NCBI GenBank assembly: GCA_030765185.1
Contig: JAVCDE010000031.1
Coordinates: 4,650-68,649 of the forward strand
DNA length: 64,000 bases
Source: Candidatus Aceula meridiana
GTDB lineage: Bacteria; Omnitrophota; Gorgyraeia; Zapsychrales; Aceulaceae
Direction of reading: 5' to 3'
The translations under genes and the position numbers were made by a program. This document shows positions 19,450 to 61,562 of the stretch, piece after piece (position 1 is the first letter of the stretch; every line of letters starts with the position of its first letter). The notes under the pieces were generated by a model. The model had not been told where the DNA came from. It did not search any database and was given only the letters and a program-made list of their open reading frames with translations.

Positions 19450-21555
19450 TTAAAGCATAAAAAGCATCTCAGCATAAGAAGGAAGCGGCCAAAGATCTGC
19501 CGGAACTAATCCTTCTAAAACATCGATAGGTTTACGAAGCGCTACCATCGCAGCTTTTGTTTTTAAAGGATCGCCTTTTTTAATTGCGCCTTCAAGCTTG
19601 TCGGTTAGCTCTAGAGACTCTTCAAGCTTTGCCGTAATCTCTTTTAAAAGCTTGCGAGAAGCTTTAGATTTTGTTTTGTTCACTGCTTCGACCGACTTAA
19701 TTGTATCAGCCAACTCATTTTGATATGTCACAACAGCCGGTAAAATTATGGTCTTGGCCATATCTGCAGTTAAAGATGCTTCATAATTAATAATTGTTTC
19801 ATACGTTTCAAGATAGACGTCATGACGAGAAACAAGCTCTTTCTTAGTCAAAACACTATACTTCTCAAAAAGATTAACAACCTCAGGTTTTGTGACTTCG
19901 CCTAAAGCCTCAACAGTGTTCTTAAGATTTGGAAGTCCTCTCTTTTGGGCTTCCTTAACCCAAGCCTCTGTATAGTTGTCGCCATTATAAATGACTCTCT
20001 TATGCTTCTTGATAATATCCTGAAGAAGTTTTTGAACAGCTTTATTAAAAGCATCTTTTGATTTTCCTGCCTTTTCAAGTGTTGTGCAAACTTCATCTAA
20101 GCTTTCAGCCACAATTGTATTTAAAACAATATTTGCTCCCGCTAAACTCGCGTTAGAACCAACAGCGCGAAATTCAAACTTAGCGCCTGTAAAAGCAAAA
20201 GGAGAAGTTCTGTTTCTATCTGTAGCATCTCTTGGTAGTTTTGGCAAAGAGTCAACGCCGATTTCTAGAACGCCACCTTTTTTAGATGTCTTTGCTCCAC
20301 CTTTTTCAATCTGCTCGATAATGTCCGTCAGCTGTTCACCTAAAAAGATAGAAATAATCGCCGGCGGTGCTTCATGAGAACCTAATCGATGATCGTTTCC
20401 TGCTGAAGCAATCGAAGCCCGCAACATACCGGCATGCGTATCCACGGCTTTGATAATTGCAGCCAAAACAACCAAAAACTTGGCATTATCATGGGGGTTA
20501 TCTCCCGGAGCAAGCCAGTTTTTACCATCTGGTCCTACAACAGACCAGTTGTTATGCTTACCCGAACCATTAACACCTGCAAAAGGTTTTTCATGGAGAA
20601 GGCATGTGAGTCCGTGCTTTTCAGCGACTTTTTGCATAACCTCCATGCAAAGCATATTATGATCTACGGCCAAATTAAGGCTTTCAAAAACAGGAGCTAG
20701 CTCAAATTGAGCCGGAGCAACTTCGTTATGCTGAGTTTTAGCAGGAATGCCTAAGCGCCACATCTCTTTGTTAAGGTCTTCCATAAACCCAATAACGCGG
20801 TTTTTGATGGCTCCGAAATAATGGTCGGCCATCTGTTGATGCTTTGCAGGCTCTTTTCCAAAAAGCGTTCGGCCTGTTTGAATAAGGTCGATTCTTTGAA
20901 GATAAAGATCCCTGTCAATCAAGAAATATTCTTGCTCACCGCCTAATGTTGCATAGGCTTGTTTTCCTTTCGAGCTAATGCCGAAAATTTCTGCCAAACG
21001 GCAAACTTGTTTTGACAAAGCTTTCATGGAGCGCAAAAGAGGTGTTTTCTTGTCCAACGCATCCCCATGCCATCCAATAAAATAAGTTGGAATGCAAAGT
21101 GTCGCTCCATTTGGGCCTTCTTTAATAAAGGCGGGACTAGTCGGATCCCATCCCGTGTAACCACGAGCTTCAAATGTAGGACGTAAGCCACCCGACGGAA
21201 AACTTGATGCGTCAGGTTCACCTTGAGTTAATTCTTTTCCGGAAAACTTAATAACCACGCCACCTTCATCATCCGGAGAAATGAACGCATCGTGTTTTTC
21301 AGCGGTCAACCCAGTCAAAGGTTGAAACCAGTGTGTGAAGTGAGTGGCTCCCTTGGAAACAGCCCAAGTTTTCATCGCATCAGCGACTTCGTCAGCGATG
21401 TTCGGGTCTAACAGGCCCCCCATTGTAATTGTTTTGCTTAAAGATTTATAAGCTTTTTCCGATAAGTAATTACGCATAACCTTTAAGCTAAACACGTTTT
21501 CCCCATAGAAGTCCCCAATCGTTTCTATGGCTTGACTTTTTGATGTTTTTTTCAC
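19450..21555 (-). CDS. glnN: Glutamine synthetase type III.
   Basis: ~700 aa is the size typical of GSIII, and GS catalytic-domain motifs are present. The start is GTG, preceded by AAGGAGGAG. Confidence 0.85.
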   Translation of the reverse strand: MKKTSKSQAIETIGDFYGENVFSLKVMRNYLSEKAYKSLSKTITMGGLLDPNIADEVADAMKTWAVSKGATHFTHWFQPLTGLTAEKHDAFISPDDEGGVVIKFSGKELTQGEPDASSFPSGGLRPTFEARGYTGWDPTSPAFIKEGPNGATLCIPTYFIGWHGDALDKKTPLLRSMKALSKQVCRLAEIFGISSKGKQAYATLGGEQEYFLIDRDLYLQRIDLIQTGRTLFGKEPAKHQQMADHYFGAIKNRVIGFMEDLNKEMWRLGIPAKTQHNEVAPAQFELAPVFESLNLAVDHNMLCMEVMQKVAEKHGLTCLLHEKPFAGVNGSGKHNNWSVVGPDGKNWLAPGDNPHDNAKFLVVLAAIIKAVDTHAGMLRASIASAGNDHRLGSHEAPPAIISIFLGEQLTDIIEQIEKGGAKTSKKGGVLEIGVDSLPKLPRDATDRNRTSPFAFTGAKFEFRAVGSNASLAGANIVLNTIVAESLDEVCTTLEKAGKSKDAFNKAVQKLLQDIIKKHKRVIYNGDNYTEAWVKEAQKRGLPNLKNTVEALGEVTKPEVVNLFEKYSVLTKKELVSRHDVYLETYETIINYEASLTADMAKTIILPAVVTYQNELADTIKSVEAVNKTKSKASRKLLKEITAKLEESLELTDKLEGAIKKGDPLKTKAAMVALRKPIDVLEGLVPADLWPLPSYAEMLFML

Positions 21556-21571
21556 GAACTCCTCCTTTTTT

Positions 21572-21599
21572 CCGCCGAGGGCGGATCCGCCCTCGGTGG
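21572..21599 (-). promoter_or_regulatory. Perfect 22-bp GC-rich palindrome (CCGAGGGCGGATCCGCCCTCGG) between glnK and glnN. It is a stem-loop without a U-tract.
   Basis: The inverted repeat with a central GGATCC was read directly. On the minus strand it is followed by AAAAAAGGAGGAG and the glnN start. A possible transcript processing/stability or attenuation element. Confidence 0.4.
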
Positions 21600-21628
21600 C
21601 ACATTAATTAAACATCTTGCCTTTTTCT

Positions 21629-21970
21629 CTACCCTATAGCCTCGATTCCTTCTTCTTCAGTCCGAATGCGGATGCAGCGCGGCAAATCTAAAACAAAAAT
21701 CTTTCCATCCCCGATATTTCCTGATTTGGCGCCCTTGATAATCGCTTTAATCGTCGGCTCAACAAAATCTTTGTTGACTCCAATCTCAAGACGAACCTTT
21801 TTCAAAAGGTTTACCTCGTGGACAACACCTCGATACGTCTCGCTATAGCCTCTTTGCTGGCCACATCCTAAGACATTTGTGACTGTCATTTTGTGAACAC
21901 CTGCCTCAAAGAGTGCTTTCTTAACATCCGGAAGCTTGTGAGGCTGAATCATTGCTATAATCAGTTTCAT
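21629..21970 (-). CDS. glnK: Nitrogen regulatory protein P-II.
   Basis: 112 aa starting [13 protein letters not shown], with a T-loop containing the uridylylation-site Tyr context RGYSETYRG. Confidence 0.9.
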
Positions 21971-22041
21971 ATTCTCTCTCCTTTAAATGAGCGTATAATT
22001 TACGTGACCGCAAGAAGCGTAAATTATTTACGCGAATTTAT

Positions 22042-22063
22042 CCCGCACATAAAATGTGTCGGG
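22042..22063 (-). repeat. Bulged GC hairpin motif, copy 1 (CCCGCACAT-aaa-ATGTGTCGGG), 11 nt after the amt stop.
   Basis: It is one of three copies (24159, 60480) sharing the flank GCRARKTTAYCCCGC...GTCGGGA. All have a one-base bulge, and the inner stem shows compensatory changes. Confidence 0.5.
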
Positions 22064-22076
22064 ACGGTCTATGTTC

Positions 22077-23423
22077 TTATTCGGTTGTAAAAACCTGGAA
22101 CCCTTTGTAAGATTCCATTCCATGCAAACTAATGTCAAGCCCCTTAAGTTCTTCTTCACGAGTAACCCTTAGGCCTTTGGTAATTTTTGCAATAACCGTA
22201 AAAATAATAAACATCATAGCCGCAACAAACGCAACGGCAGCCAACAGGCCAGCCGCTTGAATACCAAGCTGTTTAAATCCTCCGCCATGCAAAAGCCCAT
22301 CGTTAGCAAGGCCCAATGCTTTGTGGCCAAAAATCCCAACAGCCAAAGTTCCCCAAGAACCGTTCATTAAGTGAACCGGCACAGCGCCAACAGGGTCATC
22401 AACGCCGACCTTGTCTAAAAAAATCGTTCCAAGAACAACAATAATCCCAGCGATAGCTCCTATAATCAGCGCTTCGCTTGGCATAATAAATCTACAAGGT
22501 GCTGTAACAGCAACTAATCCAGCCAAAGCGCCATTCATTGTCATAGTTAAATCTGGCTTACCAAACAATTTCCAAGCAAAAAACATAGCAACTAATCCCC
22601 CTGAAACAGCAGATAAATTTGTTGTCATGGCCACGTGAGCAATAGCACTTCCATCGCCAACACTTAAGGTCGATCCTGGATTGAAACCAAACCAAGCAAA
22701 CCAAAGAATAAGCGCTCCCAAGGAAGCCAAGGGCATGGAATGGCCTTCGACCGCGTTCGCTGAGCCATCTTTGTTAAACTTTCCGATGCGGGGCCCAAGC
22801 ATCATGGTTCCAACAAGAGCTGCTGTTCCACCAACCGCATGAACAACAGTCGATCCTGCAAAATCAGCAAACCCAAGATTGGCTAACCATCCACCGCCCC
22901 AAATCCAATGTCCGACGATAGGATAAACTGTAGCTGAAATTAAAAATGAATACATCAAATAAGCTTGAAATTTCATGCGTTCGGCAACACCACCGGCAAC
23001 GATTGTGGCTGCCGCACCACAAAAAACAGCATGAAAAAACCACTCTGCATATAAAGGAATATGAGCGCCGGGTTCGATGTTATTTAAAAACCACCCGCTG
23101 AAGCCCATAAAACCATTTCCGACGCCAAACATAATAGCATACCCAAAAATAAAGAACCCAACGGATGCCATACAAAAATCTAAAAAGTTGCACATCAAAA
23201 CGTTGCACGTATTCTTTGTCCGAATAAGCCCTGCTTCAAGCATGCCGAATCCTGCCTGCATAATAAAAACCATAAAAGCAGCAATCATAACCCAAAGGGT
23301 ATCAACACCGACTTTTGACGCAAACACTACTTCTTCCTGCGCGTATACTACTGCTGGGCAAACCAAAAGAAAAGCCAGGATAAGGGCTTTTTTTCTTAAG
23401 ATGTTTTTCAAAAATGTCATCAT
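22077..23423 (-). CDS. amt: Ammonium transporter (Amt family) with signal peptide.
   Basis: 448 aa, 11 TM segments, Amt signature regions, and a glnK partner downstream. Confidence 0.9.
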   Translation of the reverse strand: MMTFLKNILRKKALILAFLLVCPAVVYAQEEVVFASKVGVDTLWVMIAAFMVFIMQAGFGMLEAGLIRTKNTCNVLMCNFLDFCMASVGFFIFGYAIMFGVGNGFMGFSGWFLNNIEPGAHIPLYAEWFFHAVFCGAAATIVAGGVAERMKFQAYLMYSFLISATVYPIVGHWIWGGGWLANLGFADFAGSTVVHAVGGTAALVGTMMLGPRIGKFNKDGSANAVEGHSMPLASLGALILWFAWFGFNPGSTLSVGDGSAIAHVAMTTNLSAVSGGLVAMFFAWKLFGKPDLTMTMNGALAGLVAVTAPCRFIMPSEALIIGAIAGIIVVLGTIFLDKVGVDDPVGAVPVHLMNGSWGTLAVGIFGHKALGLANDGLLHGGGFKQLGIQAAGLLAAVAFVAAMMFIIFTVIAKITKGLRVTREEELKGLDISLHGMESYKGFQVFTTE

Positions 23424-23462
23424 TTTCTCCTTTTTGTTATATCCTTTTTCTTTTTAGCCTCT

Positions 23463-23510
23463 AAAACAAAAAAGAGGTCTAAACAGTCACCGCTGACCAT
23501 TTTGGACCTC
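23463..23510 (-). terminator. Leader intrinsic terminator/attenuator upstream of amt.
   Basis: Minus-strand RNA reads GAGGUC-(26-nt loop with inner GUCA-GCGG-UGAC hairpin)-GACCUC followed by UUUUUUGUUUU. It lies between the predicted promoter and the amt start. Confidence 0.45.
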
Positions 23511-23624
23511 ATTGCCCAGAAATCGCGTGGTTATAAAAAATCCCCAAAAAACTACCGCCGAGAAGACGTAATTTCTTGAGGACTTCATTGTCCAACAGTA
23601 GACGCCATTGCCTACTTTTTAAGC

Positions 23625-23652
23625 AGTATACAATAAAAAAATTTTTTGTCAA
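23625..23652 (-). promoter_or_regulatory. Sigma70-like promoter for amt (TTGACA-16-TATACT).
   Basis: Hexamers read on the minus strand: -35 at 23647-23652 and -10 at 23625-23630, with a 16-nt spacer. Confidence 0.45.
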
Positions 23653-23693
23653 TACCCCTTTTTCAACAAAATTCCTTTTTTTGTTTTGGCTAG

Positions 23694-23722
23694 GAAGGGC
23701 GGCTTTTTAAAAGCCGCCCTTC
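23694..23722 (-). terminator. GC-rich hairpin GAAGGGCGGC-loop-GCCGCCCTTC downstream of the upstream glnK (probable terminator; atypical U-tract).
   Basis: Perfect 10-bp inverted repeat 3 nt after the glnK stop. The T-run lies on the other flank. Confidence 0.4.
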
Positions 23723-23742
23723 TTTCTTCTTTTAAAAAACCC

Positions 23743-24084
23743 TTACCCTATCGCTTTGTTTCCAGTCTCACCCGTACGGATCCGAATGCACTGAGGCAAA
23801 TCTAAAACGAAAATTTTTCCGTCTCCAATGTTGCCAGTTTTAGCACCTTTGGCAATCGCCTTAATAGTCAGGTCAACAAACTCTTCATTCACCGCAATTT
23901 CAAGTCTCACTTTCTTTAAAAGATTGACCTGATGAACAACGCCACGGTAAGTTTCGCTAAACCCTTTTTGTTGTCCACATCCCAAAACATTAGTCACTGT
24001 CATTTTATGAACATCCGCCGCAAACAATGCTTTTTTGACATCAGGCAACTTATGCGGTTGAATCATCGCAATAATCAATTTCAT
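23743..24084 (-). CDS. glnK: Nitrogen regulatory protein P-II (second copy, ~85% identical to the first).
   Basis: 112 aa starting [13 protein letters not shown]. Confidence 0.9.
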
Positions 24085-24158
24085 AATCTTCCTCCTCCTT
24101 TAAATGAGCGTATAATTTAAGCGACTGCAAAAAGCGTAAATTATCTACGCGAAGTTAT

Positions 24159-24180
24159 CCCGCACATAAAACGTGTCGGG
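24159..24180 (-). repeat. Bulged GC hairpin motif, copy 2 (CCCGCACAT-aaa-ACGTGTCGGG).
   Basis: It occupies the same position after the second amt stop. The ~100-bp amt-glnK intergenic segment is ~88% identical to the first. Confidence 0.5.
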
Positions 24181-24192
24181 ATAGTCTATATT

Positions 24193-25584
24193 TTATTCGG
24201 TTGAAAAGATCTGGAATCCCGCATAAGCTTCCATCCCATGCTCTTCAATATCAAGACCCCGAAGCTCTTCATTCCCGCTGACGCGAAGACCAATCGTTTT
24301 CTTAATAATATAAAACAAAGCAAACCCTGTTATTAAACACCAGACAAAAACAGCCCCTACGCCTGCTAGCTGAGCTAACAACAATTTAGCCCCGCCTCCA
24401 AAAAAGAGGCCGTTTCCTGTTGTCCCCGGAGCAAAAATGTCTTGAGCAAAAAGCCCTACAGAAATAGTTCCCCAGGCACCGCAAACACCATGAACAGAAA
24501 CAGCACCAACAGGATCATCGATGCGAAGAACCTTATCTACAAAAACAACCGCAAAAACAACTAAAACTCCAGCAACAGATCCAATAATAACCGCGCTTCC
24601 GGCAGAAACAAAAGCACACGGCGCTGTAATGCCGACTAATCCAGCTAAGGCCCCATTAAGCGCCATCGAAAGGTCTGGCTTTCCAAAAAGTTTCCACGAA
24701 ACCAGCATGGCAGCACAAGCTCCGGCTGCTGCAGCCAAATTAGTTGTTACAGCAATATGGCCGATATCTAAAACTGCTCCCATTGTACTTCCAGGATTAA
24801 ACCCAAACCATCCAAACCAAAGGATAAAAACACCTAAAGCAGCTAAAGGAAGGTTGTGTCCCGGAATAGCATTTGAGCTTCCGTCCGGATTATATTTTCC
24901 GATCCTAGGCCCAAGCATAATAGCGCCCGTTAAAGCAACCCAAGCACCGGTAGAGTGGACAACCGTAGAACCTGCAAAATCCCAAAATCCAAGATTAGCA
25001 AGCCAGCCACCGCCCCAAATCCAATGACCAACAACCGGATAAATAAGGGCTGTCACCACAACGCTAAACGCAAGGTATCCTATAAACTTCGTACGTTCGG
25101 CCATAGCTCCAGAGACAATGGTCGCTGCCGTAGCCGCAAAAACAAGCTGGAAAAAATATTTTGCTTCTAACGGAATAGTTGACCAAGCTAAAGAATCAAA
25201 CGTTCCTCCTAAATCTTTAAGAAAGAACCCGCTTGTTCCAAAGAGCGCATTTCCTGCGCCAAACATAATTCCGAATCCGATAGCCCAATAGATAATCGTT
25301 CCTACAGAAAAATCCATCAGATTTTTCATCAAGATATTACAAGCATTCTTAGCCCTAGTAAACCCTGTCTCAACAAGGGCAAATCCGGCCTGCATAAGCA
25401 TAACCAAGAAAGCCGCAAGAATGGTCCAAACAGTATCCAGGATCACTTTGTTTTCTTGAATAAGCTCCGCATTGTCAGCTATGCTCGATGCGTCTTGCGC
25501 AAACACCGGGCCTGCAAGCCCTAAACACCCAATAACAAAAAGTGCCAGAGCCTTAGGCCATATTCTTTTTAATTCTTTAAACAT
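24193..25584 (-). CDS. amt: Ammonium transporter (Amt family), second, more divergent copy.
   Basis: 463 aa with a signal peptide and Amt TM topology. Confidence 0.9.
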   Translation of the reverse strand: MFKELKRIWPKALALFVIGCLGLAGPVFAQDASSIADNAELIQENKVILDTVWTILAAFLVMLMQAGFALVETGFTRAKNACNILMKNLMDFSVGTIIYWAIGFGIMFGAGNALFGTSGFFLKDLGGTFDSLAWSTIPLEAKYFFQLVFAATAATIVSGAMAERTKFIGYLAFSVVVTALIYPVVGHWIWGGGWLANLGFWDFAGSTVVHSTGAWVALTGAIMLGPRIGKYNPDGSSNAIPGHNLPLAALGVFILWFGWFGFNPGSTMGAVLDIGHIAVTTNLAAAAGACAAMLVSWKLFGKPDLSMALNGALAGLVGITAPCAFVSAGSAVIIGSVAGVLVVFAVVFVDKVLRIDDPVGAVSVHGVCGAWGTISVGLFAQDIFAPGTTGNGLFFGGGAKLLLAQLAGVGAVFVWCLITGFALFYIIKKTIGLRVSGNEELRGLDIEEHGMEAYAGFQIFSTE

Positions 25585-25612
25585 TTTCTCCCCCTTTCTT
25601 TTTAAGTAAGCT

Positions 25613-26410
25613 TTAAAACTCAGCGCTAAAGCCTACGCCCCAAAAAAATTCATTTTCATGAGCCCCGTCACCTTCATCTTTAACATCCCCAAATGGCATG
25701 CTATAGTTGATGCTGGGAGCCATGCTTAAAAACTTTGTAAGAGGAATCGTTACTCCTCCACTTAAAGCAACATCTCCGCCTTCTCCCTTAATAAAGAGCT
25801 TGCGGTTATAACCAACATGTCCGCCTAAATCTAAGGTAATCCCATAAGAAGGAACAAGGTCAAGACTGTGGCTTAAATCCAGAACTAAGTAATCTCCCTT
25901 ACCTCCGCCTTGGCTTTCCCGGCTATAATCATGGTACCATGTAAGCGACGGCGCTAAAAAAGTATCATAGGAAAAACCTAAAACAGCCTCTTTGCTGAAA
26001 GTTCCTGCATCAGGAAAATCATAATAAACATGGCCAACGGTAACGCTGAAGGTTTCTAAATCTTTATCAAAAAGATTGAGATTCTCAAAGTCGTATGTAT
26101 ACGTCAGCGATGTATCCATTTCAGAAGAAGCCCTACCATCGGCTGCATCAATATCAAAATTTGACCAGACACCTAACTCAAAGCCATAAGCACCAATGGT
26201 GAAACCAGGCTGTATAACAAAATCGTTATCAAGCTTCATTCCGCGCCAAATGTATTTTGAATAAAGGTCTGTGGTAGCACTAATATCAACATTGATATTC
26301 TTTTCCCCTAAGAAATTTCCAATAACCGTTTTTGGCTCTTCTTGAGCCATAGAAATCCCTGCCGTTAAAACAAACATTGTTCCTACAACTGCTGTGAAAA
26401 ATCTTCTCAT
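25613..26410 (-). CDS. Putative outer-membrane beta-barrel protein (porin-like), first gene of the amt-glnK unit.
   Basis: Signal peptide ending AQEE, alternating amphipathic strands, and a C-terminal aromatic residue (SAEF). A 28-bp gap separates it from amt. Confidence 0.5.
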   Translation of the reverse strand: MRRFFTAVVGTMFVLTAGISMAQEEPKTVIGNFLGEKNINVDISATTDLYSKYIWRGMKLDNDFVIQPGFTIGAYGFELGVWSNFDIDAADGRASSEMDTSLTYTYDFENLNLFDKDLETFSVTVGHVYYDFPDAGTFSKEAVLGFSYDTFLAPSLTWYHDYSRESQGGGKGDYLVLDLSHSLDLVPSYGITLDLGGHVGYNRKLFIKGEGGDVALSGGVTIPLTKFLSMAPSINYSMPFGDVKDEGDGAHENEFFWGVGFSAEF

Positions 26411-26469
26411 CTCAACTTCTCCTCTTTTAATTGTTTAACATCTTTTTCTTTACCAAAAAGAAAAGCCCC

Positions 26470-26640
26470 CTTCTTAAAAAGTCATCAACGACTTTAAAAA
26501 GAGGACTTCTTCGCCCACCTTAGGGACCCTTAAACCACAAAAACCCGACGGATCAATCATTGATCGGTCGAGCCTCTTTGCCCAGAAAATAAAAAACCTC
26601 TTAACCCTTCACCGGATTAAGAGGACTTCTTCGCCCATCT
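26470..26640 (-). promoter_or_regulatory. Leader with three consecutive terminator-like hairpins (26587-26624, 26535-26570, 26473-26495) and two copies of the direct repeat GGGCGAAGAAGUCCUCUU. Candidate ANTAR-responsive attenuators.
   Basis: T1 is an 11-bp stem with a GGUGAA loop followed by UUUUUUAUUUU. T2 is AAAGUC-GUUGAU-GACUUU plus a U-run. The middle hairpin is CGACCGAUC..GAUCCGUCG plus GGUUUUUGUGG. Each direct repeat can form GGGC-GAAGAA-GUCC overlapping the terminator base. Confidence 0.5.
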
Positions 26641-26649
26641 GTTACTTTA

Positions 26650-26677
26650 AATATACAACATTTTAGAAATTTGTCAA
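26650..26677 (-). promoter_or_regulatory. Sigma70-like promoter (TTGACA-16-TATATT) directly after the GAF-ANTAR stop, reading into the attenuator leader.
   Basis: -35 at 26672-26677 and -10 at 26650-26655 on the minus strand. Confidence 0.45.
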
Positions 26678-26687
26678 GGGCCTTTTT

Positions 26688-27929
26688 TTACTTTCTTTGA
26701 AAATCAGACATTAAAAGAATTGACTCAGCAACTTCTTTCATCGTCTTGCATGAATCCATACTTTTTTTATGAATCATTTTATAGGCCTGATTTTCATCCA
26801 AGCTATTCATGCGCATCAAAATGCCCTTAGCTCGTTCCACAAGTTTACGCGTTTCAAGGGCTTCTTTGGCCTTAACTGTCTCATCGACAAGCTTTGTGTT
26901 TTCAACCGCAATAGCAGCCTGATTTGAGACCATTTGAAGAACATTTATCTCCTCTTGTGAAAAGCTATGTGGCTTTTTAGTATAAATATTAATAACGCCA
27001 ACAATGCGGTCCTTAACAATCATTGGCACTGAAAGCATAGAGCTTAAGCCCTCTTTTATGGCCAAATCCCGATAAGCATATTTTTCCTCTATCCTAACAT
27101 CGAAATACATTTTAGCCTTGCGTGCTTTTACAGCTTCACCGCTTAAACTTTTTTCTACCTTGATGTCAGATTTTTTCTTATAATCTTGACTTAAAGATTG
27201 TGTCGCTTTAATAGAAAGCTCATTTTTCTTTTCATCTAAAAGCATAATCGAGCAAATCTTGGAATCCAGCATCTCAGCTGTCACGACCACAATAAGATTT
27301 AAAATCTCATCCAAATAGCTCTCAGAAGTAATCGACTGACTCACTTTAATGAGTTTATCAAACTGGTTTGCCTTTTTTTTCGTTTCCTCATAGAGCCTGG
27401 CGTTTTCGATAACACCGCTGACTTGCTTTGAAATGGTTGTCAAAAGATTAATTGTCGCATTGGGAGTCGAATGTACTTTTTTATACTGAATATTGATAAC
27501 GCCGCTTGTCCTTCCCTTATATATAATCGGGACAGACACAAAAGCTTCATATCTGTCTTCAGGCAAGACATCGAACCCTTTAAAACGCTTATCTTTATAA
27601 GCGTTTTGCTTAATATTGACAACTTTGCTTTCTTTGGCAACCCAACCAGTAATGCCCTCTCCGGCTCGCAGGCTAATTTTCCCAAGTTCTTGTTTGTGAG
27701 GAATTTTTGAAGCCAAAAGGATTAAATTTTTTCGGCTCTCATCAAAAAGATAAATAAAAACGGAGTCTGCTTTAGTAGCTACGCTAACAATATTAACAAC
27801 TTCCTTTAAAATCGGGGCAAGGTCTAAGTCTGAAGAAACAAGATCGACAATTTTTCGTAAAATCTCCACTTCTTGGGCTTGACTACGCAATTTAGCGGAT
27901 GTCTTTGTTTTTACAACTTGCTTAGGCAT
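26688..27929 (-). CDS. GAF-GAF-ANTAR RNA-binding antitermination regulator.
   Basis: Two ~150-aa GAF-like repeats. The C-terminus LVERAKGILMRMNSLDENQAYKMIHKKSMDSCKTMKEVAESIL matches the ANTAR domain (AmiR/NasR/EutV family). Confidence 0.75.
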   Translation of the reverse strand: MPKQVVKTKTSAKLRSQAQEVEILRKIVDLVSSDLDLAPILKEVVNIVSVATKADSVFIYLFDESRKNLILLASKIPHKQELGKISLRAGEGITGWVAKESKVVNIKQNAYKDKRFKGFDVLPEDRYEAFVSVPIIYKGRTSGVINIQYKKVHSTPNATINLLTTISKQVSGVIENARLYEETKKKANQFDKLIKVSQSITSESYLDEILNLIVVVTAEMLDSKICSIMLLDEKKNELSIKATQSLSQDYKKKSDIKVEKSLSGEAVKARKAKMYFDVRIEEKYAYRDLAIKEGLSSMLSVPMIVKDRIVGVINIYTKKPHSFSQEEINVLQMVSNQAAIAVENTKLVDETVKAKEALETRKLVERAKGILMRMNSLDENQAYKMIHKKSMDSCKTMKEVAESILLMSDFQRK

Positions 27930-54254: not shown

Positions 54255-55823
54255 CTATTTGGCATATTCTACGGCGCGTGTTTCACGAATGACAAGCACC
54301 TTTATCTGACCAGGATATTCCATGCTTCCTTCAATCTTTTTGCGAATATCTCGGGCTAGCACTAAAGAGGCCTCGTCTCCGACTTTGTTAGGTCTAACCA
54401 TTATGCGGACTTCTCGTCCGGCCTGAAGCGCATACGCTTTATCAATGCCTTTAAAAGAAGTCGCAATATTTTCTAAAGTCTCAATACGCTTAATATACGT
54501 TTCCATAGTTTCAGCACGTGCGCCAGGGCGAGCTGCGCTAATCGCATCAGCAGCTGCAACCAGAATTCCATAAATCGTCATCTCTGTTTCTTCGTGATGG
54601 CATTCAATGGCTTTAACAACTTCAGGAGCCTCTCCGAATTTACGAGCAATCTCTGCACCAATAATCGCATGAGGGCCTTCGACTTCAGAGCCGGCAACTT
54701 TTCCAATGTCATGTAAAAGGCCTGCACGTCGAGCTGTTTTAAAATCAAAATTAAGCTGTGATGCCATAATCCCCATCAAAGATGCTACTTCTTTAGAATG
54801 GCGAAGCGCATTTTGGCCAAAACTTGTACGATATTTTAACCGGCCAACAAGCTTAACCAATTCAGGGTGCATGGTATGAATTCCTAAATCAAAAATAGCT
54901 TGTTCGCCTTCTTCTTTAATCTTGGAATCAATTTCTTTCTTTACCTTCTCGACAACTTCTTCAATGCGTCCCGGATGAATACGCCCATCCTGGATAAGAC
55001 GCTCCAAAGAAATCTTGGCAATCTCCCGGCGCATCATATCAAACCCTGAAATCGTAACCGCTTCAGGGGTATCATCAATGATGATATCAACACCCGTTGC
55101 CATCTCAAAGGCGCGAATGTTGCGCCCTTCACGGCCGATAATACGTCCTTTCATTTCGTCTGACGGAAGATGAACAACGCTAATCGTCGTATCTCCGGCA
55201 TGGTCAGAAGCACAGCGATGAATTGCCGCTGAAATAATTTCTTTGGCTTTTTTATCAGCATCTTCTTTGAGCTGTTCTTCCATTTCACGAATGCGTCCTG
55301 CTTTTTCTCCAAGAATCTCATCGTCAATACGCGACAAGAGAAGGCTCTTAGCCTCTTCTGAGGTCATAGATGATATCTTTTGCAGCCTTTGCTTTTCTTC
55401 TTCAACAAGCTTTTGCAAGCTCTCTTTTTGTTTGCCGATATCTTCTTCTTTTTCATGAAGAGCATTGACGCGCCCTTCAACATCTTTTTCTTTCTTCTCT
55501 AAAAGGTCAACGCGCTTATCAAGATTTTCTTCTTTTTGTAAAATACGTTTTTCAGCAGCCGAGATCTCTTCTCGCCTTTCCTGAGTCTCCTTCTCAAATT
55601 TCTCGCGAAGATGAATTAACATATCACGGGATTTAATCTCCGCTTCTTTCATGGTGTTTTCAACTGAACGCTCAGTTTTTTCAATGAGCTCTTTTGCTTT
55701 TTGTTTGGCCCTGTGCAATCTTTTGCCAGAAAAAAACCGGCTTAAAAGATAGCCTGATAAAACAAGAAAAACACCTAAAATAGGATATCCAACGGTATAT
55801 AACAAAATATTTGATTTTTCCAT
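54255..55823 (-). CDS. rny: Ribonuclease Y.
   Basis: N-terminal TM helix, coiled coil, KH domain and HD domain (HDIGK). Confidence 0.9.
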
Positions 55824-56744: not shown

Positions 56745-56904
56745 AAAAATAAAACCCCGCGATTGCCGTTGGGGTTAGGTAACATGAACCGTATTTGTCA
56801 AGTGGGTGCTTCTCTAAAAAGCCCAAAGGCATTTTAGAAGGCAAGCTCCCGTATATACTGTGTTGGTTCAGTATAACTTGACCCTCAACGCACAACGCAG
56901 GGTT
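56745..56904 (-). ncRNA. Candidate small RNA (~160 nt) bounded by an extended -10 promoter and an intrinsic terminator. It is a 6S RNA (ssrS) candidate by synteny with the MTHFS gene.
   Basis: Minus-strand TGGTATAAT (rc of 56911-56919) lies right after the pheT stop. The terminator AACCCC-(12 nt)-GGGGUU plus UUAUUUUU ends at ~56745. The 5' ACAUUUAACC pairs with the 3' GGUUCAUGU as a closing stem. There is an internal 7-bp stem GUCAAGU/ACUUGAC with two nested hairpins and an asymmetric internal loop. Confidence 0.35.
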
Positions 56905-56957
56905 AAATGTATTATACCACAAGCGTCAACGCCTTAAAGCCTTAAACGTTCCTAAAA

Positions 56958-58985
56958 TTAACGCTTAATCGCATCAAGATCTGAAATAATTTTCTGGCAA
57001 ATCACCTGGTGGGCTTTTTCAACCTCTTGCTCTGTAAGAGTTCTCGTCCCAGATTGATAGGTCAAAGAAATAGTTATGCCGCGGCACCCTACAGGAACTT
57101 TTTCACCTAAATATTGCTCAACAAAAGAAACTTCCTTTAGCAAAGGCTCTTTTAAAAAATCAATAACGTCACAAACTTTTTGAAATGTGGAGTACTCTTT
57201 TACAGCTAAGCTAATATCTCTTACAACAGACGGGTAATCAGAAACTTTTTGGAATCGGCAAAGTTTTTGTTCTTTTTGATAAAGCGTCTCAATGTCTACC
57301 TCTGCATAAAAAACATCCTGATGTTTAATATCCCAACGCTCTAAAATATCGCTAGAAACCTTTCCTAAAAATCCAGATTTTTTTCCACCAATAAAAACAG
57401 CAGCTGACTGCCCAAAGACAAACGAAGCCTTCTTATCAAGCGAGTAATTTACATTTGTAATTTTAAGACGCTTTAAAACGCCATCTAAGGATCCCTTAAT
57501 ATCATAGAAATCAATCTTTTCTTTTAAACTACGCCAGTCCGCGTTTCTTTTCCCTGTCATGGCAACAATCAAAACATCTTTTTCTCCCGACGAAAAATAA
57601 TTCTTTCCAATCTCAAAAATCTTTAAATCCTTTTGCCCTTTTTTAAAATTTGTGGCAACAATGTTTAAAAAGCTTGGTAACGCAGACGGTCTTAAAATTT
57701 GCTGGTCTTCAGTTAAAGGATTTTGATTAATCACGCCTTGAGAAATATTTTGTTTAGTGTTCTCTAATGCTTTCAGACCTACCATCGTATACGATATAAC
57801 TTCGCTTAACCCTAAGCCTGTTGCTGCTTGTCTTAATTTTTCTTTAAAAATCCATCTCTTGCTTGTAGGAACATTTTCAGCTTTAATCTGAGCTAGCCGC
57901 ATCGGCAAATTATCATAGCCGATAATGCGGGCAATCTCTTCGGTTACATCCACGCCTATTTGAATGTCCTTTCGAAAAGACGGCGCGGTAACGAGCAAAG
58001 AATCCTTGCCACTTGATGAAACTTTAAACTCGAGCTTTGTTAAAATATTTTTAATGCGCGTTAAGGGAATGTTAGCGCCTAAAAAATTCTCAATCTGAGA
58101 CTTGCTAATCTTGATTTTCTTTTGTTTTTTATTTGCCTTAGCAGGATAAACATCTTTACGCGCATCTGCCTTGCCAAGCGCGAGCTCTTGAATAAGGTTG
58201 AGTGCCCGCCAGGCGGCTTGTTCTACCATATCAATATCTACGCCTCGTTCAAATCGGTAAGATGAGTCGCTTCTTAAGGCTAGTTTGCGAGACGCCCTGC
58301 GGATTAAAACAGGGTCAAAATAAGCACTTTCAAGCAAAATATTCTTAGTTTTTGAGGTAACTTCGGTTTTCTTGCCACCCATAACCCCTGCAATAGCTAC
58401 AGGCCTCTTAGCATCAGCAATAATAAGAATAGATGGGTCGAGCTCATATTCTACTTCGTCAATTGCAACAATCTTCTCTCCTTTTTTAGCGCGCCGCACA
58501 ATAATCTTTCCACCTTCAAGCTTGTCATAATCAAAAGCATGCATCGGTTGACCGGTTTCCATCAGACAAAAATTTGTAATGTCTACAATGTTATTAATGG
58601 GACGCAAGCCAAGGGCGCTTAACTTTTTTTGTAAAAAAGAGGGTGATTGTGCGATTTTGACATCTGTCAAAATCGCACCAATATACCTTCCGCAATCTTT
58701 TTTGTTCTCAATAGAAATCGCGCACTTACTTTTACTAAACTTAATTCTTTTAATTTTTGGTTTTTTAAAAGGCTTATTTAAAATCGCAGATATTTCTCTT
58801 GCCATACCAATCATGTTAAGACAATCCGGTCGGTTGGGTGTAATCTCGAGCTCAAAAACAATATCGCCCCCGACGAGCTCTTCTTTCTCAACCTCAGAAC
58901 CAGACAGAGTGAGTTTATGCGCTAACGCCGCTGGCGTTAGCGCGAAACTGACATAATCTTTTAACCAGCTTAAGGATATTCTCAT
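56958..58985 (-). CDS. pheT: Phenylalanine--tRNA ligase beta subunit (short form).
   Basis: MRISLSWLKDYV start, with B3/4, B5 and class II core-like domains. Confidence 0.85.
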   Translation of the reverse strand: MRISLSWLKDYVSFALTPAALAHKLTLSGSEVEKEELVGGDIVFELEITPNRPDCLNMIGMAREISAILNKPFKKPKIKRIKFSKSKCAISIENKKDCGRYIGAILTDVKIAQSPSFLQKKLSALGLRPINNIVDITNFCLMETGQPMHAFDYDKLEGGKIIVRRAKKGEKIVAIDEVEYELDPSILIIADAKRPVAIAGVMGGKKTEVTSKTKNILLESAYFDPVLIRRASRKLALRSDSSYRFERGVDIDMVEQAAWRALNLIQELALGKADARKDVYPAKANKKQKKIKISKSQIENFLGANIPLTRIKNILTKLEFKVSSSGKDSLLVTAPSFRKDIQIGVDVTEEIARIIGYDNLPMRLAQIKAENVPTSKRWIFKEKLRQAATGLGLSEVISYTMVGLKALENTKQNISQGVINQNPLTEDQQILRPSALPSFLNIVATNFKKGQKDLKIFEIGKNYFSSGEKDVLIVAMTGKRNADWRSLKEKIDFYDIKGSLDGVLKRLKITNVNYSLDKKASFVFGQSAAVFIGGKKSGFLGKVSSDILERWDIKHQDVFYAEVDIETLYQKEQKLCRFQKVSDYPSVVRDISLAVKEYSTFQKVCDVIDFLKEPLLKEVSFVEQYLGEKVPVGCRGITISLTYQSGTRTLTEQEVEKAHQVICQKIISDLDAIKR

Positions 58986-59119: not shown

Positions 59120-60412
59120 TTATAGCTCCTGCTGAGGGCTACCAGCACAAGACTGGCTCCAGTCACCATGGACTTGGAACCAGTACCAAGTGGTGCCTCC
59201 ATCTGTGGTAGAGCAAATTCTCAAGGTAGACGCGTTAACGCTTCCACCGCCAAAGCAACTATAATTCACAAATGGGGTAAACTTCATCGTTCCAGCCAAT
59301 GCTGCTGTACAAACTCCCGGGTTTTCGCTTCCAACTTTAATAGCACCATTAACATCTAAAGACACTACAGGGGTACTTCTGTTAATTCCGACGCGTCCTT
59401 TATGAGCAGCGTCATCTCCTCCAACTTGCAACGCTGCCGAAGACTGATCTGTCGGAATTCCTGTCCGTATCCCGAGCTTACCACCAATAGTGGCTGTAGC
59501 ATAAAGGTCTCCAGTAACTTCAAGATTGTCAGGACGCGATGCCCCATTGTAGAAAGAATTGTACCCCGGGATAGTAACATTCCCATCGCTGCTAACTAAA
59601 ACGCCTTCGTTTCCGCCATCTCCGGATAAATATCCTCCGTTTAATGCAATGTTTCCACTCTCCATCTCAACATCTCCTCGAAAATAAGCTGCAGATCCAG
59701 TGGCGTCTCCTGTGGTTGCAAAAAGGCCAATATTGCCAGCAGGCAAAGAAGTCCCCCTATCGGTTGCCGCGGCAACAAAAGCAGGCAAGCCATTAAGCCC
59801 TGAACCAACAAACGCAGAAGGATATTTCCCTCCAACCGGGATAAGCTCAATTCCTGTCGGGTTGACTTCAAAAAGAGAGTCAGGATCTAATTTTTTAATC
59901 CCGACACTTCCATTAACATAAAGATTAACATTTGATAAATCGTCATTAGGAATAGTGCCACCGATTCCTACAGGATTTCCAAAAAAATTCTGAACACCTG
60001 CGGATCTTTCTTCATAAATACCAAAACCGGGATCACTCGCAGGAAATCCTATAGGAGTGCTTGCTGAAAGATAAAGAGCTCCGTCTCCGATTCCAGAAGG
60101 ATCTATTACTGCGCTCCCTCCTTGTGCAACCTGCATAGCCCAGCTATCGTTTGTGGCCCCTGTAAAATAAAACTTAGATAAGACTCCAGACATAGCGTTA
60201 TCCTCTTTTACATAAAGCTTGCGGACTTTATTTAAATCAACAGTATCATCTGTCCCGACACCAAGCTTTTCCATAACCCTCATATCTTGATACTTTCCAA
60301 AAGGTGCCGGGTAATAAGTTGTTAGAGTTACAGATCCCTGAGCAAAGACTAGCGTTGCGCTAGCTACGCCGGCAAAAACGAACAGTCCTAAAGAAATTAA
60401 TGTTTTTTTCAT
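59120..60412 (-). CDS. Secreted glycine-rich, beta-rich hypothetical protein (possible surface/fibre-like protein) inserted between pheS and pheT.
   Basis: Signal peptide (ASATLVFAQG), >20% Gly with irregular G-x-G repeats, Cys pairs at the C-terminus, and no TM segment. Confidence 0.5.
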   Translation of the reverse strand: MKKTLISLGLFVFAGVASATLVFAQGSVTLTTYYPAPFGKYQDMRVMEKLGVGTDDTVDLNKVRKLYVKEDNAMSGVLSKFYFTGATNDSWAMQVAQGGSAVIDPSGIGDGALYLSASTPIGFPASDPGFGIYEERSAGVQNFFGNPVGIGGTIPNDDLSNVNLYVNGSVGIKKLDPDSLFEVNPTGIELIPVGGKYPSAFVGSGLNGLPAFVAAATDRGTSLPAGNIGLFATTGDATGSAAYFRGDVEMESGNIALNGGYLSGDGGNEGVLVSSDGNVTIPGYNSFYNGASRPDNLEVTGDLYATATIGGKLGIRTGIPTDQSSAALQVGGDDAAHKGRVGINRSTPVVSLDVNGAIKVGSENPGVCTAALAGTMKFTPFVNYSCFGGGSVNASTLRICSTTDGGTTWYWFQVHGDWSQSCAGSPQQEL

Positions 60413-60479
60413 CTTTTCCTCCTAAATGAGCGCATGATTTATGGCCGCGTTAGCAAAATAAATCCTCTGCGCAAGTTTA

Positions 60480-60502
60480 CCCCGCGCACGAAGTGCGTCG
60501 GG
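60480..60502 (-). repeat. Bulged GC hairpin motif, copy 3 (CCCGCGCAC-gaa-GTGCGTCGGG), downstream of pheS.
   Basis: Same architecture and flanks as the copies at 22042 and 24159. The inner stem CGCAC/GUGCG versus CACAU/AUGUG is compensatory. Confidence 0.5.
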
Positions 60503-60515
60503 ATTTCCTTAGTTA

Positions 60516-61562
60516 TTAAAATTGCTTAAGAAATCTTATATCGTTTTCAAAAAACAGCCGGATATCATGAATACCGTGTTTAAGCATGGCAATGCGTTCA
60601 ACGCCCATGCCAAAAGCTAGTCCTTCATACTTACCCTTAGGATATTTAACAGCTTCAAAAACTTTTGGATGTACCATTCCACAACCTAAAATCTCAAGCC
60701 ACCCTTTTCGTCCGCAAGTCGAGCATCCTTTTCCACCGCAGATATAGCAGGAAATATCCACCTCTGCTGATGGTTCAGTAAAAGGGAAAAAATGTGGACG
60801 AAAACGCATTTTGATATTCTCCCCAAAAAATCTTTTGCAAAAAGCCGTTAGCAACCCTTTAAGATCTGCAAACTTTATATCTTCATCAACCAAAAGCCCT
60901 TCAATCTGATGGAACATAAATGAATGGCTAGCATCGACAGCGTCGGGGCGATACACTTTTCCGGGGCTTACAACAGCCAAAGGGGGTTTATGGTTTTGCA
61001 TGACGCGAATTTGAGCAGGCGATGTCTGGCTGCGTAAAAGTAAATTTCTATCTTTGGCGCCTGGGTCTTTTTGTTCCAAATAAAATGTGTCAAACGCATC
61101 ACGAGAGGGATGGTCTATCGGAATATTAAGAGCTGTAAAATTATTAAATTCAGTTTCAATTTCAGGTCCTTCAAAAATCGCAAATCCTAATTTTTCAAAA
61201 ATCGCGCAAATGTCTCTTGTCGTCTGCGATAAAATGTGCGCATGTCCTAATTCTTGAAAAACACCCGGGATTGTAACATCAACAGCGTCGAGGCCTGCCT
61301 TCTTTTTTGTCTGCATCGTTTGGAGTTCTTGCTTTTTAGATGCAATCGCCTCTGTGACTTGAGAGCGCAAGTCGTTAGCGCCTTTTCCAATCAGAGGTTT
61401 TTCTTGTGGAGAGGCCTGCGTTAAACTACCATAAATTTCTGCAACCAAGCCCTTTTTACCAAGATATTTTATGCGAAAACTTTCTAAAACCTGCAAATTT
61501 TCAGCCGAAGCGATTTCTTGCTGAGACGTTGTGATAAGTTGTTCAAAATTCCAAGAGGTCAT
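60516..61562 (-). CDS. pheS: Phenylalanine--tRNA ligase alpha subunit.
   Basis: FHQIEGL motif 2 and class II aaRS motifs. Confidence 0.9.
   Translation of the reverse strand: MTSWNFEQLITTSQQEIASAENLQVLESFRIKYLGKKGLVAEIYGSLTQASPQEKPLIGKGANDLRSQVTEAIASKKQELQTMQTKKKAGLDAVDVTIPGVFQELGHAHILSQTTRDICAIFEKLGFAIFEGPEIETEFNNFTALNIPIDHPSRDAFDTFYLEQKDPGAKDRNLLLRSQTSPAQIRVMQNHKPPLAVVSPGKVYRPDAVDASHSFMFHQIEGLLVDEDIKFADLKGLLTAFCKRFFGENIKMRFRPHFFPFTEPSAEVDISCYICGGKGCSTCGRKGWLEILGCGMVHPKVFEAVKYPKGKYEGLAFGMGVERIAMLKHGIHDIRLFFENDIRFLKQF

What the first reader, a model, noticed from the sequence alone, without database searches (positions are those of the whole stretch)
22042..22063. Three-copy bulged GC hairpin family with compensatory base changes (22042, 24159, 60480), placed just after stop codons.
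All three copies share a 4-bp CCCG/CGGG outer stem, a single bulged base on the same side, a 5-bp inner stem and a 3-nt loop. The inner stem is CACAU/AUGUG at the amt genes but CGCAC/GUGCG after pheS. Structure is kept while sequence changes. The flanks are also related (GCGAATTTAT..., GCAAGTTTAC... before, GGGA after). Placement 11-25 nt after a stop codon and ahead of the next gene's SD suggests an RNA element. It could be a 3'-end stability element, a U-tract-less terminator, or a site for an RNA-binding protein. It is less likely a DNA operator, given the asymmetric bulge.
Basis: seen in the sequence. Interest (0 to 1): 0.55.

Follow-up and report, generated by a model that had tools for sequence, protein, structure and literature searches.

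The report
Two-hairpin intergenic repeat in operon spacers
The small GC hairpin is real, but it is only the first half of a roughly 95-base two-hairpin repeat that fills the gap between neighbouring genes in this Omnitrophota genome and a few relatives; it is a new example of an ordinary kind of bacterial intergenic repeat, probably shaping mRNA processing rather than acting as a dedicated switch.

Summary
There are three copies, at 22042-22063, 24159-24180 and 60481-60502, against 0.07 expected by chance. All lie on the minus (coding) strand, 12-13 nt after the stops of amt2, amt1 and pheS.

The hairpin (P1) is one module of a conserved unit of about 92 nt: P1, then a long interrupted hairpin (P2), then the Shine-Dalgarno site of the next gene. 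The unit fills the whole stop-to-start gap.

A covariance model found nine further copies in three related Omnitrophota contigs. Across 12 copies, 24 of 29 base pairs show compensatory changes and 94.6% of cells pair. One relative has six copies clustered in long leaders, two of them inverted. Six other relatives have none.

Within a genome the copies are 90% identical. Between genomes they are 80-83% identical whatever the position, which indicates concerted evolution.

There is no Rfam match, no ANTAR-type loops, no U-tract, no conserved sense-strand promoter, no terminal inverted repeats and no transposase in the window.

Best reading: a previously undescribed, lineage-restricted family of structured intergenic repeats (REP/BIME/Correia-like in kind). 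Here it is co-transcribed in sense and most likely acts as an intercistronic mRNA processing and stability module. That function is inferred, not shown. Interest is modest.

The parts
21978..22069 (-). Repeat unit copy 1. It fills the amt2 (stop 22079..22077) to glnK2 (ATG 21970) gap.
   Evidence: CM R1 108.1 bits; R2 90.2 bits; alignments A2/A3
22042..22063 (-). P1 of copy 1: CCCG-A-CACAU-UUU-AUGUG-CGGG. The bulged A is at 22059. This is the hairpin given in the finding.
   Evidence: pair probability 1.00
21984..22040 (-). P2 of copy 1: a long interrupted hairpin. It has an outer UAAAU/AUUUA helix, a UC/UC internal loop and a core helix GCGUA-aa-UAAUUUACG / CGUAAAUUA-UACGC (core 21991-22033). 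The SD AAGGAG follows at 21983..21978.
24095..24186 (-). Repeat unit copy 2. It fills the amt1 (stop 24195..24193) to glnK1 (ATG 24084) gap.
   Evidence: CM R1 104.3 bits; R2 81.4 bits
24159..24180 (-). P1 of copy 2: CCCG-A-CACGU-UUU-AUGUG-CGGG, with one G.U pair.
24101..24157 (-). P2 of copy 2 (core 24108-24150). The SD is at 24100..24095.
60417..60508 (-). Repeat unit copy 3. It fills the pheS (stop 60518..60516) to ORF430 (ATG 60412) gap.
   Evidence: CM R1 90.1 bits; R2 75.2 bits
60481..60502 (-). P1 of copy 3: CCCG-A-CGCAC-UUC-GUGCG-CGGG.
60423..60479 (-). P2 of copy 3 (core 60430-60472): GCGCA-gag-GAUUUAU / AUAAAUC-a-UGCGC. Three pairs change on both sides relative to copies 1 and 2. The SD GGAGGA is at 60422..60417.
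   Evidence: closing-pair probability 0.98

Best explanation
The bulged GC hairpin is module P1 of a bipartite repeat unit of about 92 nt. The unit is P1, then a long interrupted hairpin P2 (19-20 bp, with a conserved UC/UC internal loop and a variable apical loop), ending next to a Shine-Dalgarno site. It belongs to a small, lineage-restricted family of structured intergenic repeats in 'Candidatus Aceula meridiana' and some related Omnitrophota.

Shown:
- It is a repeat family with 12 copies in 4 genomes.
- Both helices are kept by compensatory change.
- In this genome all three copies are in the sense orientation. Each spans the gap from 12-13 nt after a stop codon to the next gene's SD, inside operons with no internal promoter.
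- Copies within a genome evolve in concert.

Inferred:
- The unit is transcribed as part of the polycistronic mRNA and acts after transcription.
- P2 (or the P1/P2 junction) is a site for an endoribonuclease: RNase III on the long helix, or RNase Y, whose gene is in the window.
- P1 stays at the 3' end of the upstream (amt or pheS) segment as a block to exonucleases.
- The downstream gene (glnK or ORF430) is left with a structured 5' end and an exposed SD, so the two cistrons are expressed independently instead of being translationally coupled as in relatives with 21-36 nt spacers.
- How the family spreads is unknown. The candidates are gene conversion or an unidentified transposition mechanism.
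For: Observation and extent:
- Three copies against 0.07 expected.
- Similarity runs from the stop codon to the SD.

Structure:
- RNAalifold independently predicts P1 and the long P2.
- In 5 copies, 96% of cells pair and 6 pairs change on both sides; slid controls pair at 26-57%.
- In 12 copies, 94.6% of cells pair and 24 of 29 pairs change on both sides; 0 of 500 shuffles reach this and slid controls pair at 30-43%.
- The outer P2 helix was not in model R1, yet it shows double changes in L051 copies C and E.
- G.U to A.C is 7:2 in the element-sense orientation.

Family:
- R1 and R2 find copies at L034 9401-9494 and 11519-11612; L054 7395-7490; and L051 1432-1526, 1708-1801, 1917-2022(-), 2023-2108, 5541-5650(-) and 5669-5810.

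Constraint:
- Orthologous elements are 80-83% identical, while 4-fold sites of the flanking genes are 52-58% identical.
- Paralogous 4-fold sites are saturated (36-41% identical), yet elements within a genome are 90% identical.

Context:
- No sense-strand sigma-70-like site is conserved in the three units; the scan's few sites there are at chance level.
- Canonical promoters and ANTAR attenuators lie upstream of each amt operon.
- An RNase Y gene lies at 55823..54255.
- Relatives without the element have 21-36 nt amt-glnK spacers.

Precedents:
- RNase Y cleavage guided by a downstream double-stranded element in an intercistronic region (PMC5449607).
- Transcribed Correia repeats bound or cleaved by RNase III (PMC2649163).
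Against: - No transcript-end data exist, so processing and stabilisation are pure inference.
- Thermodynamic folding of single amt copies often prefers a short self-hairpin of the P2 5' arm over the long P2.
- The family is patchy: it is absent from L037, L038, L042, L053 and L055, and from the two pheS-derived contigs L043 and L046.
- It occurs inverted and clustered in L051. That fits a selfish DNA repeat whose hairpins are kept by its own propagation, or by quasi-palindrome correction, rather than by an mRNA function.
- P1 in L054 is AU-rich, so a strong exonuclease block is not universal.
- All covariation rests on only 12 copies, and the alignment was partly fitted to the model.
Confidence: 0.45

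Rival explanations
1. It is a selfish or neutral miniature repeat (REP/REPIN- or MITE-like). The hairpins are DNA-level recognition structures for an unidentified transposase, or are kept by gene conversion and quasi-palindrome correction. Their presence in mRNAs has no selected function.
For: - Both orientations, with head-to-head pairs clustered in long intergenic regions of L051.
- Patchy distribution among close relatives.
- Concerted evolution within genomes.
- Independent occupation of three different junctions in this genome. The pheS junction is empty in relatives.
Against: - No terminal inverted repeats or target-site duplications.
- No transposase or RAYT among the window's proteins.
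- Only 3 copies in 64 kb, all in sense and all fitting exactly between stop and SD.
- The elements change more slowly than neighbouring 4-fold sites.
- G.U bias of 7:2.
Confidence: 0.22
2. It is a dedicated cis-regulatory RNA of the nitrogen-assimilation cluster. A trans-acting protein would recognise the bulged-A hairpin and the conserved UAAAUUC / CUCAUUUAA strands (or a ligand would bind) and control translation or stability of glnK, GSIII and the porin-amt operon, alongside the ANTAR attenuators.
For: - 11 of 12 known copies lie in amt/glnK/GSIII loci.
- The outer stem and bulged A are invariant while the inner stem covaries, as in protein-binding operator hairpins.
- Sequence motifs are conserved across divergent copies.
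Against: - Sampling is biased, because nearly all loci were fetched through Amt homologues.
- The third window copy precedes a surface-protein gene in the pheST operon.
- Other nitrogen operons in the window (GOGAT, CPSase, NAD synthase) have none.
- Inverted copies make no sense for a sense-RNA operator.
- The conserved 'single strands' actually pair with each other.
- Most relatives with the same gene cluster lack it.
Confidence: 0.13
3. P1 is a U-tract-less intrinsic terminator or partial attenuator that lowers read-through from amt into glnK.
For: - The stem is GC-rich and stable, with pair probability about 1.0.
- The hairpin that ends the glnK1 operon also lacks a sense-strand U-tract.
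Against: - P1 is followed by AUAAAUUC, not a U-run, and the terminator scan does not call it.
- The attenuator terminators in the same locus have canonical U-tracts.
- No conserved promoter follows, so efficient termination would silence glnK.
- P1 is AU-rich in L054.
- This reading does not explain the conserved P2.
Confidence: 0.07
4. It is a conformational switch or thermosensor. In the amt copies, P2 can refold into two short hairpins, and the loop CUYCUU can then pair with the SD AAGGAG, gating glnK translation.
For: - Alternative folds are predicted for copies 1 and 2 and for L034a, with a lower probability of an unpaired SD (0.17-0.5).
- The 5' arm is itself a palindrome.
Against: - Copy 3, L034b and the L051/L054 copies lack the alternative fold or the anti-SD.
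- Covariation supports only the long P2.
Confidence: 0.06
5. It is a DNA-level operator or internal promoter for the downstream gene.
For: - There is a 17-bp palindrome, GCGTAAAT-A-ATTTACGC, in the amt copies.
- The downstream genes would benefit from a promoter of their own.
Against: - No sense-strand sigma-70-like site is conserved in the three units; the scan's few sites there are at chance level.
- The palindrome is absent from copy 3 and from the L051/L054 copies, while the long-range pairing is kept.
- G.U pairs are tolerated and A.C mismatches are rare.
Confidence: 0.04

Closest known systems
REP/BIME and REPIN elements (RAYT-associated; PMC3116915, PMC3337134)
   Same: - Short imperfect palindromes with bulges, located in intergenic spacers just after stop codons inside operons.
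- Clustered and inverted arrangements (L051).
- Sequence populations that evolve within a genome.
- Hairpins in mRNA that can stabilise upstream segments.
   Different: - The unit here is two different hairpins, not an inverted REP doublet.
- No GTAG-type 5' motif and no RAYT gene were seen.
- Only 3 copies in 64 kb, all in sense in this genome.
- The 3' end abuts, or supplies, an SD.
Correia repeat-enclosed elements (CREE) of Neisseria (PMC2649163) and ERIC/BOX-type repeats
   Same: - Intergenic repeats of about 100 nt that are co-transcribed with neighbouring genes.
- They fold into a long hairpin.
- They alter expression through RNase III binding or cleavage, or through mRNA stability.
   Different: - CREE have terminal inverted repeats, TA duplications, IHF sites and promoter-forming ends.
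- None of these was found here.
Intercistronic processing signals: RNase Y site of saePQRS (PMC5449607); phage T7 RNase III sites (own knowledge)
   Same: - A structured double-stranded element in an intercistronic spacer.
- Cleavage next to it yields differently stable upstream and downstream segments.
- An RNase Y gene is present in the window.
   Different: - Those sites are single-locus signals, not a repeat family.
- Cleavage is not demonstrated here.
- P2 is 19-20 interrupted bp, against the 24-bp sae element.
ANTAR target RNAs (PMC3369931)
   Same: - Same operons, with a GAF-GAF-ANTAR regulator next door.
- Small hairpins in nitrogen-gene transcripts.
   Different: - ANTAR targets are dual hairpins with hexaloops (A at position 1, G at position 4) that overlap a terminator.
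- P1 has a 3-5 nt U-rich loop, P2 has a 13-50 nt loop, and there is no terminator.
- The real ANTAR-type hairpins sit in the leaders at 26636..26503 and 23593..23504.

Membership tests
ANTAR target RNA | Two tandem mini-hairpins with hexanucleotide loops, A at loop position 1 and G at position 4 (PMC3369931) | tested here: not met
   P1 loops are UUU or UUC (3-5 nt) and P2 loops are 13-50 nt. The hexaloop pattern hits only the operon leaders and one coding site, never the element.
ANTAR target RNA | The second hairpin is mutually exclusive with an intrinsic terminator | tested here: not met
   No hairpin with a U-tract follows P1 or the long P2. The scan's only call inside the units is the weak 7-bp self-hairpin of the P2 5' arm in copy 2, at 24150..24134.
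Intrinsic (Rho-independent) terminator | GC-rich stem-loop | tested here: met
   The P1 outer pair has probability about 1.0 in all five copies folded.
Intrinsic (Rho-independent) terminator | A U-tract immediately 3' of the stem | tested here: not met
   P1 is followed by AUAAAUUC, AUAACUUC or GUAAACUU, and the terminator scan does not call it.
REP/REPIN-RAYT | Short extragenic palindromes that occur in both orientations and in clusters | tested here: inconclusive
   Met in L051, with 4 forward and 2 inverted copies in head-to-head pairs. Not met in the window, where all 3 copies are in sense.
REP/REPIN-RAYT | An associated Y1 (RAYT) transposase gene, and tens to hundreds of copies per genome | not testable with these tools
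   No transposase domain was found in the window's proteins. The rest of the genome could not be fetched.
MITE / Correia-like element | Terminal inverted repeats bracketing the unit, and target-site duplication | tested here: not met
   The inverted repeats found are the internal P2 arms only, and no flanking direct repeats were found. Comparison of filled and empty junctions gives no clear duplication.
Any Rfam 15 family | A covariance-model match | tested here: not met
   At gathering threshold the window gives only 6S RNA and one tRNA. Over 21600-27000, which holds copies 1 and 2, no match falls on the element even at E<=5.
RNase-guided intercistronic processing site (sae type / RNase III type) | A double-stranded determinant in an intercistronic spacer of an operon, with the nuclease encoded by the organism | tested here: met
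   P2 is a 19-20 bp interrupted helix. There is no internal promoter. An RNase Y gene lies at 55823..54255. RNase III was not looked for.
RNase-guided intercistronic processing site (sae type / RNase III type) | Endonucleolytic cleavage at or near the element, with different stability of the two products | not testable with these tools
   This needs 5'/3'-end mapping or in-vitro cleavage.

The most novel reading that the evidence does not exclude
The unit is a portable intercistronic cassette. It spreads between operon junctions, by gene conversion or an unknown mechanism. It lands between a stop codon and the next start, and it brings its own structured insulator and ribosome-binding context. 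Alternatively, it is the binding platform of an unknown RNA-binding regulator that co-controls GlnK, GSIII and a variable surface protein in Omnitrophota. Either way it would be a repeat family domesticated as a post-transcriptional control module in an uncultivated phylum.
Probability: 0.12. Interest if true: 0.6.

Novelty: new member of a known kind. Interest (0 to 1): 0.3.

Why it matters
Almost nothing is known about post-transcriptional organisation in Omnitrophota, which have no cultured representatives. This is a compact, well-covarying RNA or DNA structure that repeatedly occupies the amt-glnK junction, normally a tightly coupled gene pair. It offers a concrete, testable case of how intergenic repeats rewire operon expression. 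The covariance model can be used to census the family.

It does not open a new mechanism class. Similar roles are established for REP, ERIC, BOX and Correia elements.

Tried and rejected
- Strict sequence patterns were scanned in three collections: genome contigs (33 hits), metagenome contigs (3 hits) and viral contigs (4 hits). All hits were chance matches. The patterns demanded CCCGA..GCGGG..CGCTCATTT, which divergent family members do not have.
- Exact look-up of the window's own proteins failed, so the rest of the source genome could not be scanned.
- Rfam gave nothing at the element.
- No internal promoter: no sense-strand sigma-70-like site is conserved in the three units, and a sigma-54 -24/-12 motif was sought by eye and not found.
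- It is not an ANTAR target.
- Pairing of the 5' flank with the P2 loop (GACCG/CGGUC) appears in the MFE fold of copy 1 but is not conserved in L034 or copy 3.
- Pairing of the P2 loop with the SD as a pseudoknot was rejected. It is absent from copy 3, and the 7-nt connector is too short to span a 14-bp stem.
- An integron attC site was considered because of the extrahelical base. No RYYYAAC/GTTRRRY boxes were seen on reading the sequence, and there is no integrase.
- A small ORF inside the element (AUG in P1) is not conserved in copy 3.
- ORF430 looked like an orphan in the word-indexed search. Direct BLAST against neighbours of pheS in relatives shows a shared N-terminal module.
- Literature searches for amtB-glnK intergenic stem-loops found nothing relevant.

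Full report
**Observation.** The three sites were read directly. A degenerate pattern for the hairpin hits exactly 22042-22063, 24159-24180 and 60481-60502, all on the minus strand. Shuffles give 0.07 hits. ORF listing and Pfam show that every flanking gene is on the minus strand.

The gene order on the minus strand is:
- GAF-GAF-ANTAR regulator (27929..26688)
- Gcw_chp porin-like gene (26410..25613)
- amt1 (25584..24193)
- glnK1 (24084..23743)
- amt2 (23423..22077)
- glnK2 (21970..21629)
- type III glutamine synthetase (21555..19450)
- GATase

Elsewhere on the same strand the order is pheS (61562..60516), a 430-aa secreted protein (60412..59120) and pheT (58985..56958).

Read as mRNA, the hairpin is CCCG-A(bulge)-NNNNN-UUY-NNNNN-CGGG. 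It starts 13, 12 and 13 nt after the stops of amt2, amt1 and pheS.

**The element is larger than the hairpin.** Aligning the three gaps shows similarity from the stop codon to the SD.
- After P1 come a conserved RUAAAYUY stretch and a long AU-rich hairpin, P2.
- P2 is GCGUA-aa-UAAUUUACG / CGUAAAUUA-UACGC at the amt copies and GCGCA-gag-GAUUUAU / AUAAAUC-a-UGCGC after pheS.
- An invariant CGCUCAUUUA follows, and then the SD.
- RNAalifold predicts the same P1 and P2 without guidance.
- On five distinct copies, 96% of cells pair and 6 pairs change on both sides. Slid controls pair at 26-57%.

**Source and relatives.** Names attached to identical database proteins identify the source as a MAG of 'Candidatus Aceula meridiana', Omnitrophota (PMC8542988). 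The genome itself could not be fetched.

The closest relative (L034, Amt1 91% identical) is syntenic and carries the unit at both amt-glnK junctions.

Model R1, built from these five copies, found nothing more in the window. It did find divergent copies in more distant relatives:
- One copy fills the amt-glnK gap of L054.
- Six copies lie in L051. Four are forward and two inverted. They form two clusters inside the long leaders of the porin-amt-glnK operon and of GSIII, and each inverted copy sits head-to-head with a forward copy.

On the 12-copy alignment, 24 of 29 pairs show changes on both sides and 94.6% of cells pair. No shuffle of 500 reaches this, and slid controls pair at 30-43%. The conserved 'linker' UAAAU and 'tail' AUUUA pair with each other. 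This helix was not part of model R1, yet it shows compensatory double changes: CUAUU/AAUAG in copy C and UUAAU/AUUAA in copy E. P2 is therefore a 19-20 bp helix with a conserved UC/UC internal loop, a bulge and a variable apical loop of 13-50 nt.

The broader model R2 still finds only three copies in the window, even with filters off. It finds none in L037, L038, L042, L043, L046, L053 or L055.

**Evolutionary pattern.**
- amt1/amt2 and glnK1/glnK2 are old paralogues. Their 4-fold sites are only 36-41% identical.
- The two elements within each genome are nevertheless 90% identical.
- Between genomes they are 80-83% identical, regardless of which positions are compared. This is concerted evolution.
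- Orthologous 4-fold sites are 52-58% identical, so the elements change more slowly than neutral sites.
- In the element-sense orientation there are 7 G.U pairs and 2 A.C mismatches. This mildly favours selection on the sense RNA.
- Relatives without the unit have amt-glnK spacers of 21-36 nt or other insertions.
- The pheS junction is 14 nt, or an unrelated 92 nt, in relatives.

**What it is not.**
- No Rfam family matches.
- It is not an ANTAR target. ANTAR targets are dual hexaloop hairpins with A1/G4 that overlap a terminator. Such hairpins are present, but in the operon leaders downstream of canonical TTGACA-N16-TATAYT promoters.
- P1 has no U-tract, whereas the leader attenuators do.
- No sense-strand promoter-like site is conserved in the units.
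- There are no terminal inverted repeats or flanking duplications.
- No transposase is encoded in the window.

**Interpretation.** The evidence fits a previously undescribed, lineage-restricted family of structured intergenic repeats, of the same general kind as REP/BIME, ERIC, BOX or Correia elements (PMC3116915, PMC2649163). In this genome the three copies are co-transcribed in sense and replace the short spacers seen in relatives.

The most likely role is an intercistronic mRNA module, given with 0.45 confidence:
- The long P2 helix or the P1/P2 junction would be an endonuclease target. Candidates are RNase III, or RNase Y, whose gene is at 55823..54255. A precedent for structure-guided intercistronic cleavage is PMC5449607.
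- P1 would protect the upstream segment's 3' end.
- The SD would be exposed directly 3' of P2.
- Together these would uncouple glnK (or ORF430) from the upstream cistron.

None of these steps is shown. The main rival is a selfish or neutral repeat (0.22). The others are a nitrogen-cluster regulatory RNA (0.13), a U-tract-less attenuator (0.07), a conformational switch (0.06) and a DNA operator (0.04).

**Caveats.**
- My collection-wide pattern scans were built from the near-identical copies, before the divergent ones were known. They returned only chance hits and say nothing about the wider distribution.
- Nearly all relatives were fetched through Amt or PheS homologues, so the apparent link with nitrogen loci is biased.
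- The 12-copy alignment was partly fitted to the model.

**Verdict.** The feature is real and the structure is conserved. It is a new family, but of a familiar kind. Interest is modest at 0.3.

Noticed in passing
window 26677..26430 and 23652..23460 (minus strand): Each amt operon starts with a canonical promoter: TTGACA-16-TATATT at 26677..26650 and TTGACA-16-TATACT at 23652..23625. ANTAR-type hexaloop mini-hairpins follow (GGGC-GAAGAA-GUCC at 26636..26623 and 26516..26503; GGAC-AAUGAA-GUCC at 23593..23580; GGGC-AAUGAG-GUCC at 23517..23504). Each overlaps a U-tract terminator. They lie directly downstream of a GAF-GAF-ANTAR regulator gene and are conserved in L034. This looks like a multi-attenuator ANTAR regulon for ammonium uptake in Omnitrophota.
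   Followed up: partly
window 59120-60412 (minus); L046 1411-2835; L043 1807-7322: The 430-aa gene between pheS and pheT looked like an orphan in the indexed protein search. In fact it shares a signal peptide and an 'ITLTTYYPAPFGxYQEMRVMGKLGVGT' N-terminal module with one to four hypervariable genes in the same pheS-pheT slot in related Omnitrophota. It has no Pfam domain. This may be a variable surface-protein family at a conserved locus.
   Followed up: partly
L053 7393-7624; L055 11390-11659: In other relatives the amt-glnK junction carries different insertions: gaps of 232 and 270 nt, with a called 53-aa ORF in L053. This junction seems to be a hot spot for insertions in the clade.
   Followed up: no
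window about 21569-21590 (minus): A perfect GC hairpin, CCGAGGGCGGAUCCGCCCUCGG, without a U-tract lies between glnK2 and the GSIII gene, just upstream of the GSIII SD. It is not conserved in L034.
   Followed up: partly
window 23692-23724: The 15-bp hairpin after glnK1 has its T-run on the plus (antisense) strand only. On the coding strand it is followed by CCUAGCC. The operon's end may therefore use a U-tract-less or bidirectional terminator.
   Followed up: no
window 26858-26871 (minus): A fifth match to the ANTAR hexaloop hairpin pattern (GGCC-AAAGAA-GCCC) lies inside the coding sequence of the ANTAR regulator gene itself. It could be chance or autoregulation.
   Followed up: no
window 56750-56906 (minus) and 54255-55823 (minus): A 6S RNA (Rfam 75.6 bits) lies directly downstream of pheT. 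An RNase Y gene follows two genes further on. The same pheT / 5-FTHF cyclo-ligase / RNase Y order is seen in L046.
   Followed up: partly
window 458-27929: About 27 kb of almost unbroken nitrogen and glutamine metabolism genes lie on one strand: CTP synthase, amidotransferases, CPSase small and large subunits, both GOGAT subunits, NAD synthase, GATase, GSIII, two glnK-amt pairs and the ANTAR regulator.
   Followed up: partly
L051 1432-1526: One family copy lies 39 nt after the stop of a vapC (PIN) gene and immediately upstream of the -35 box of the promoter for the porin-amt operon. Copies are therefore not restricted to stop-to-SD spacers.
   Followed up: partly
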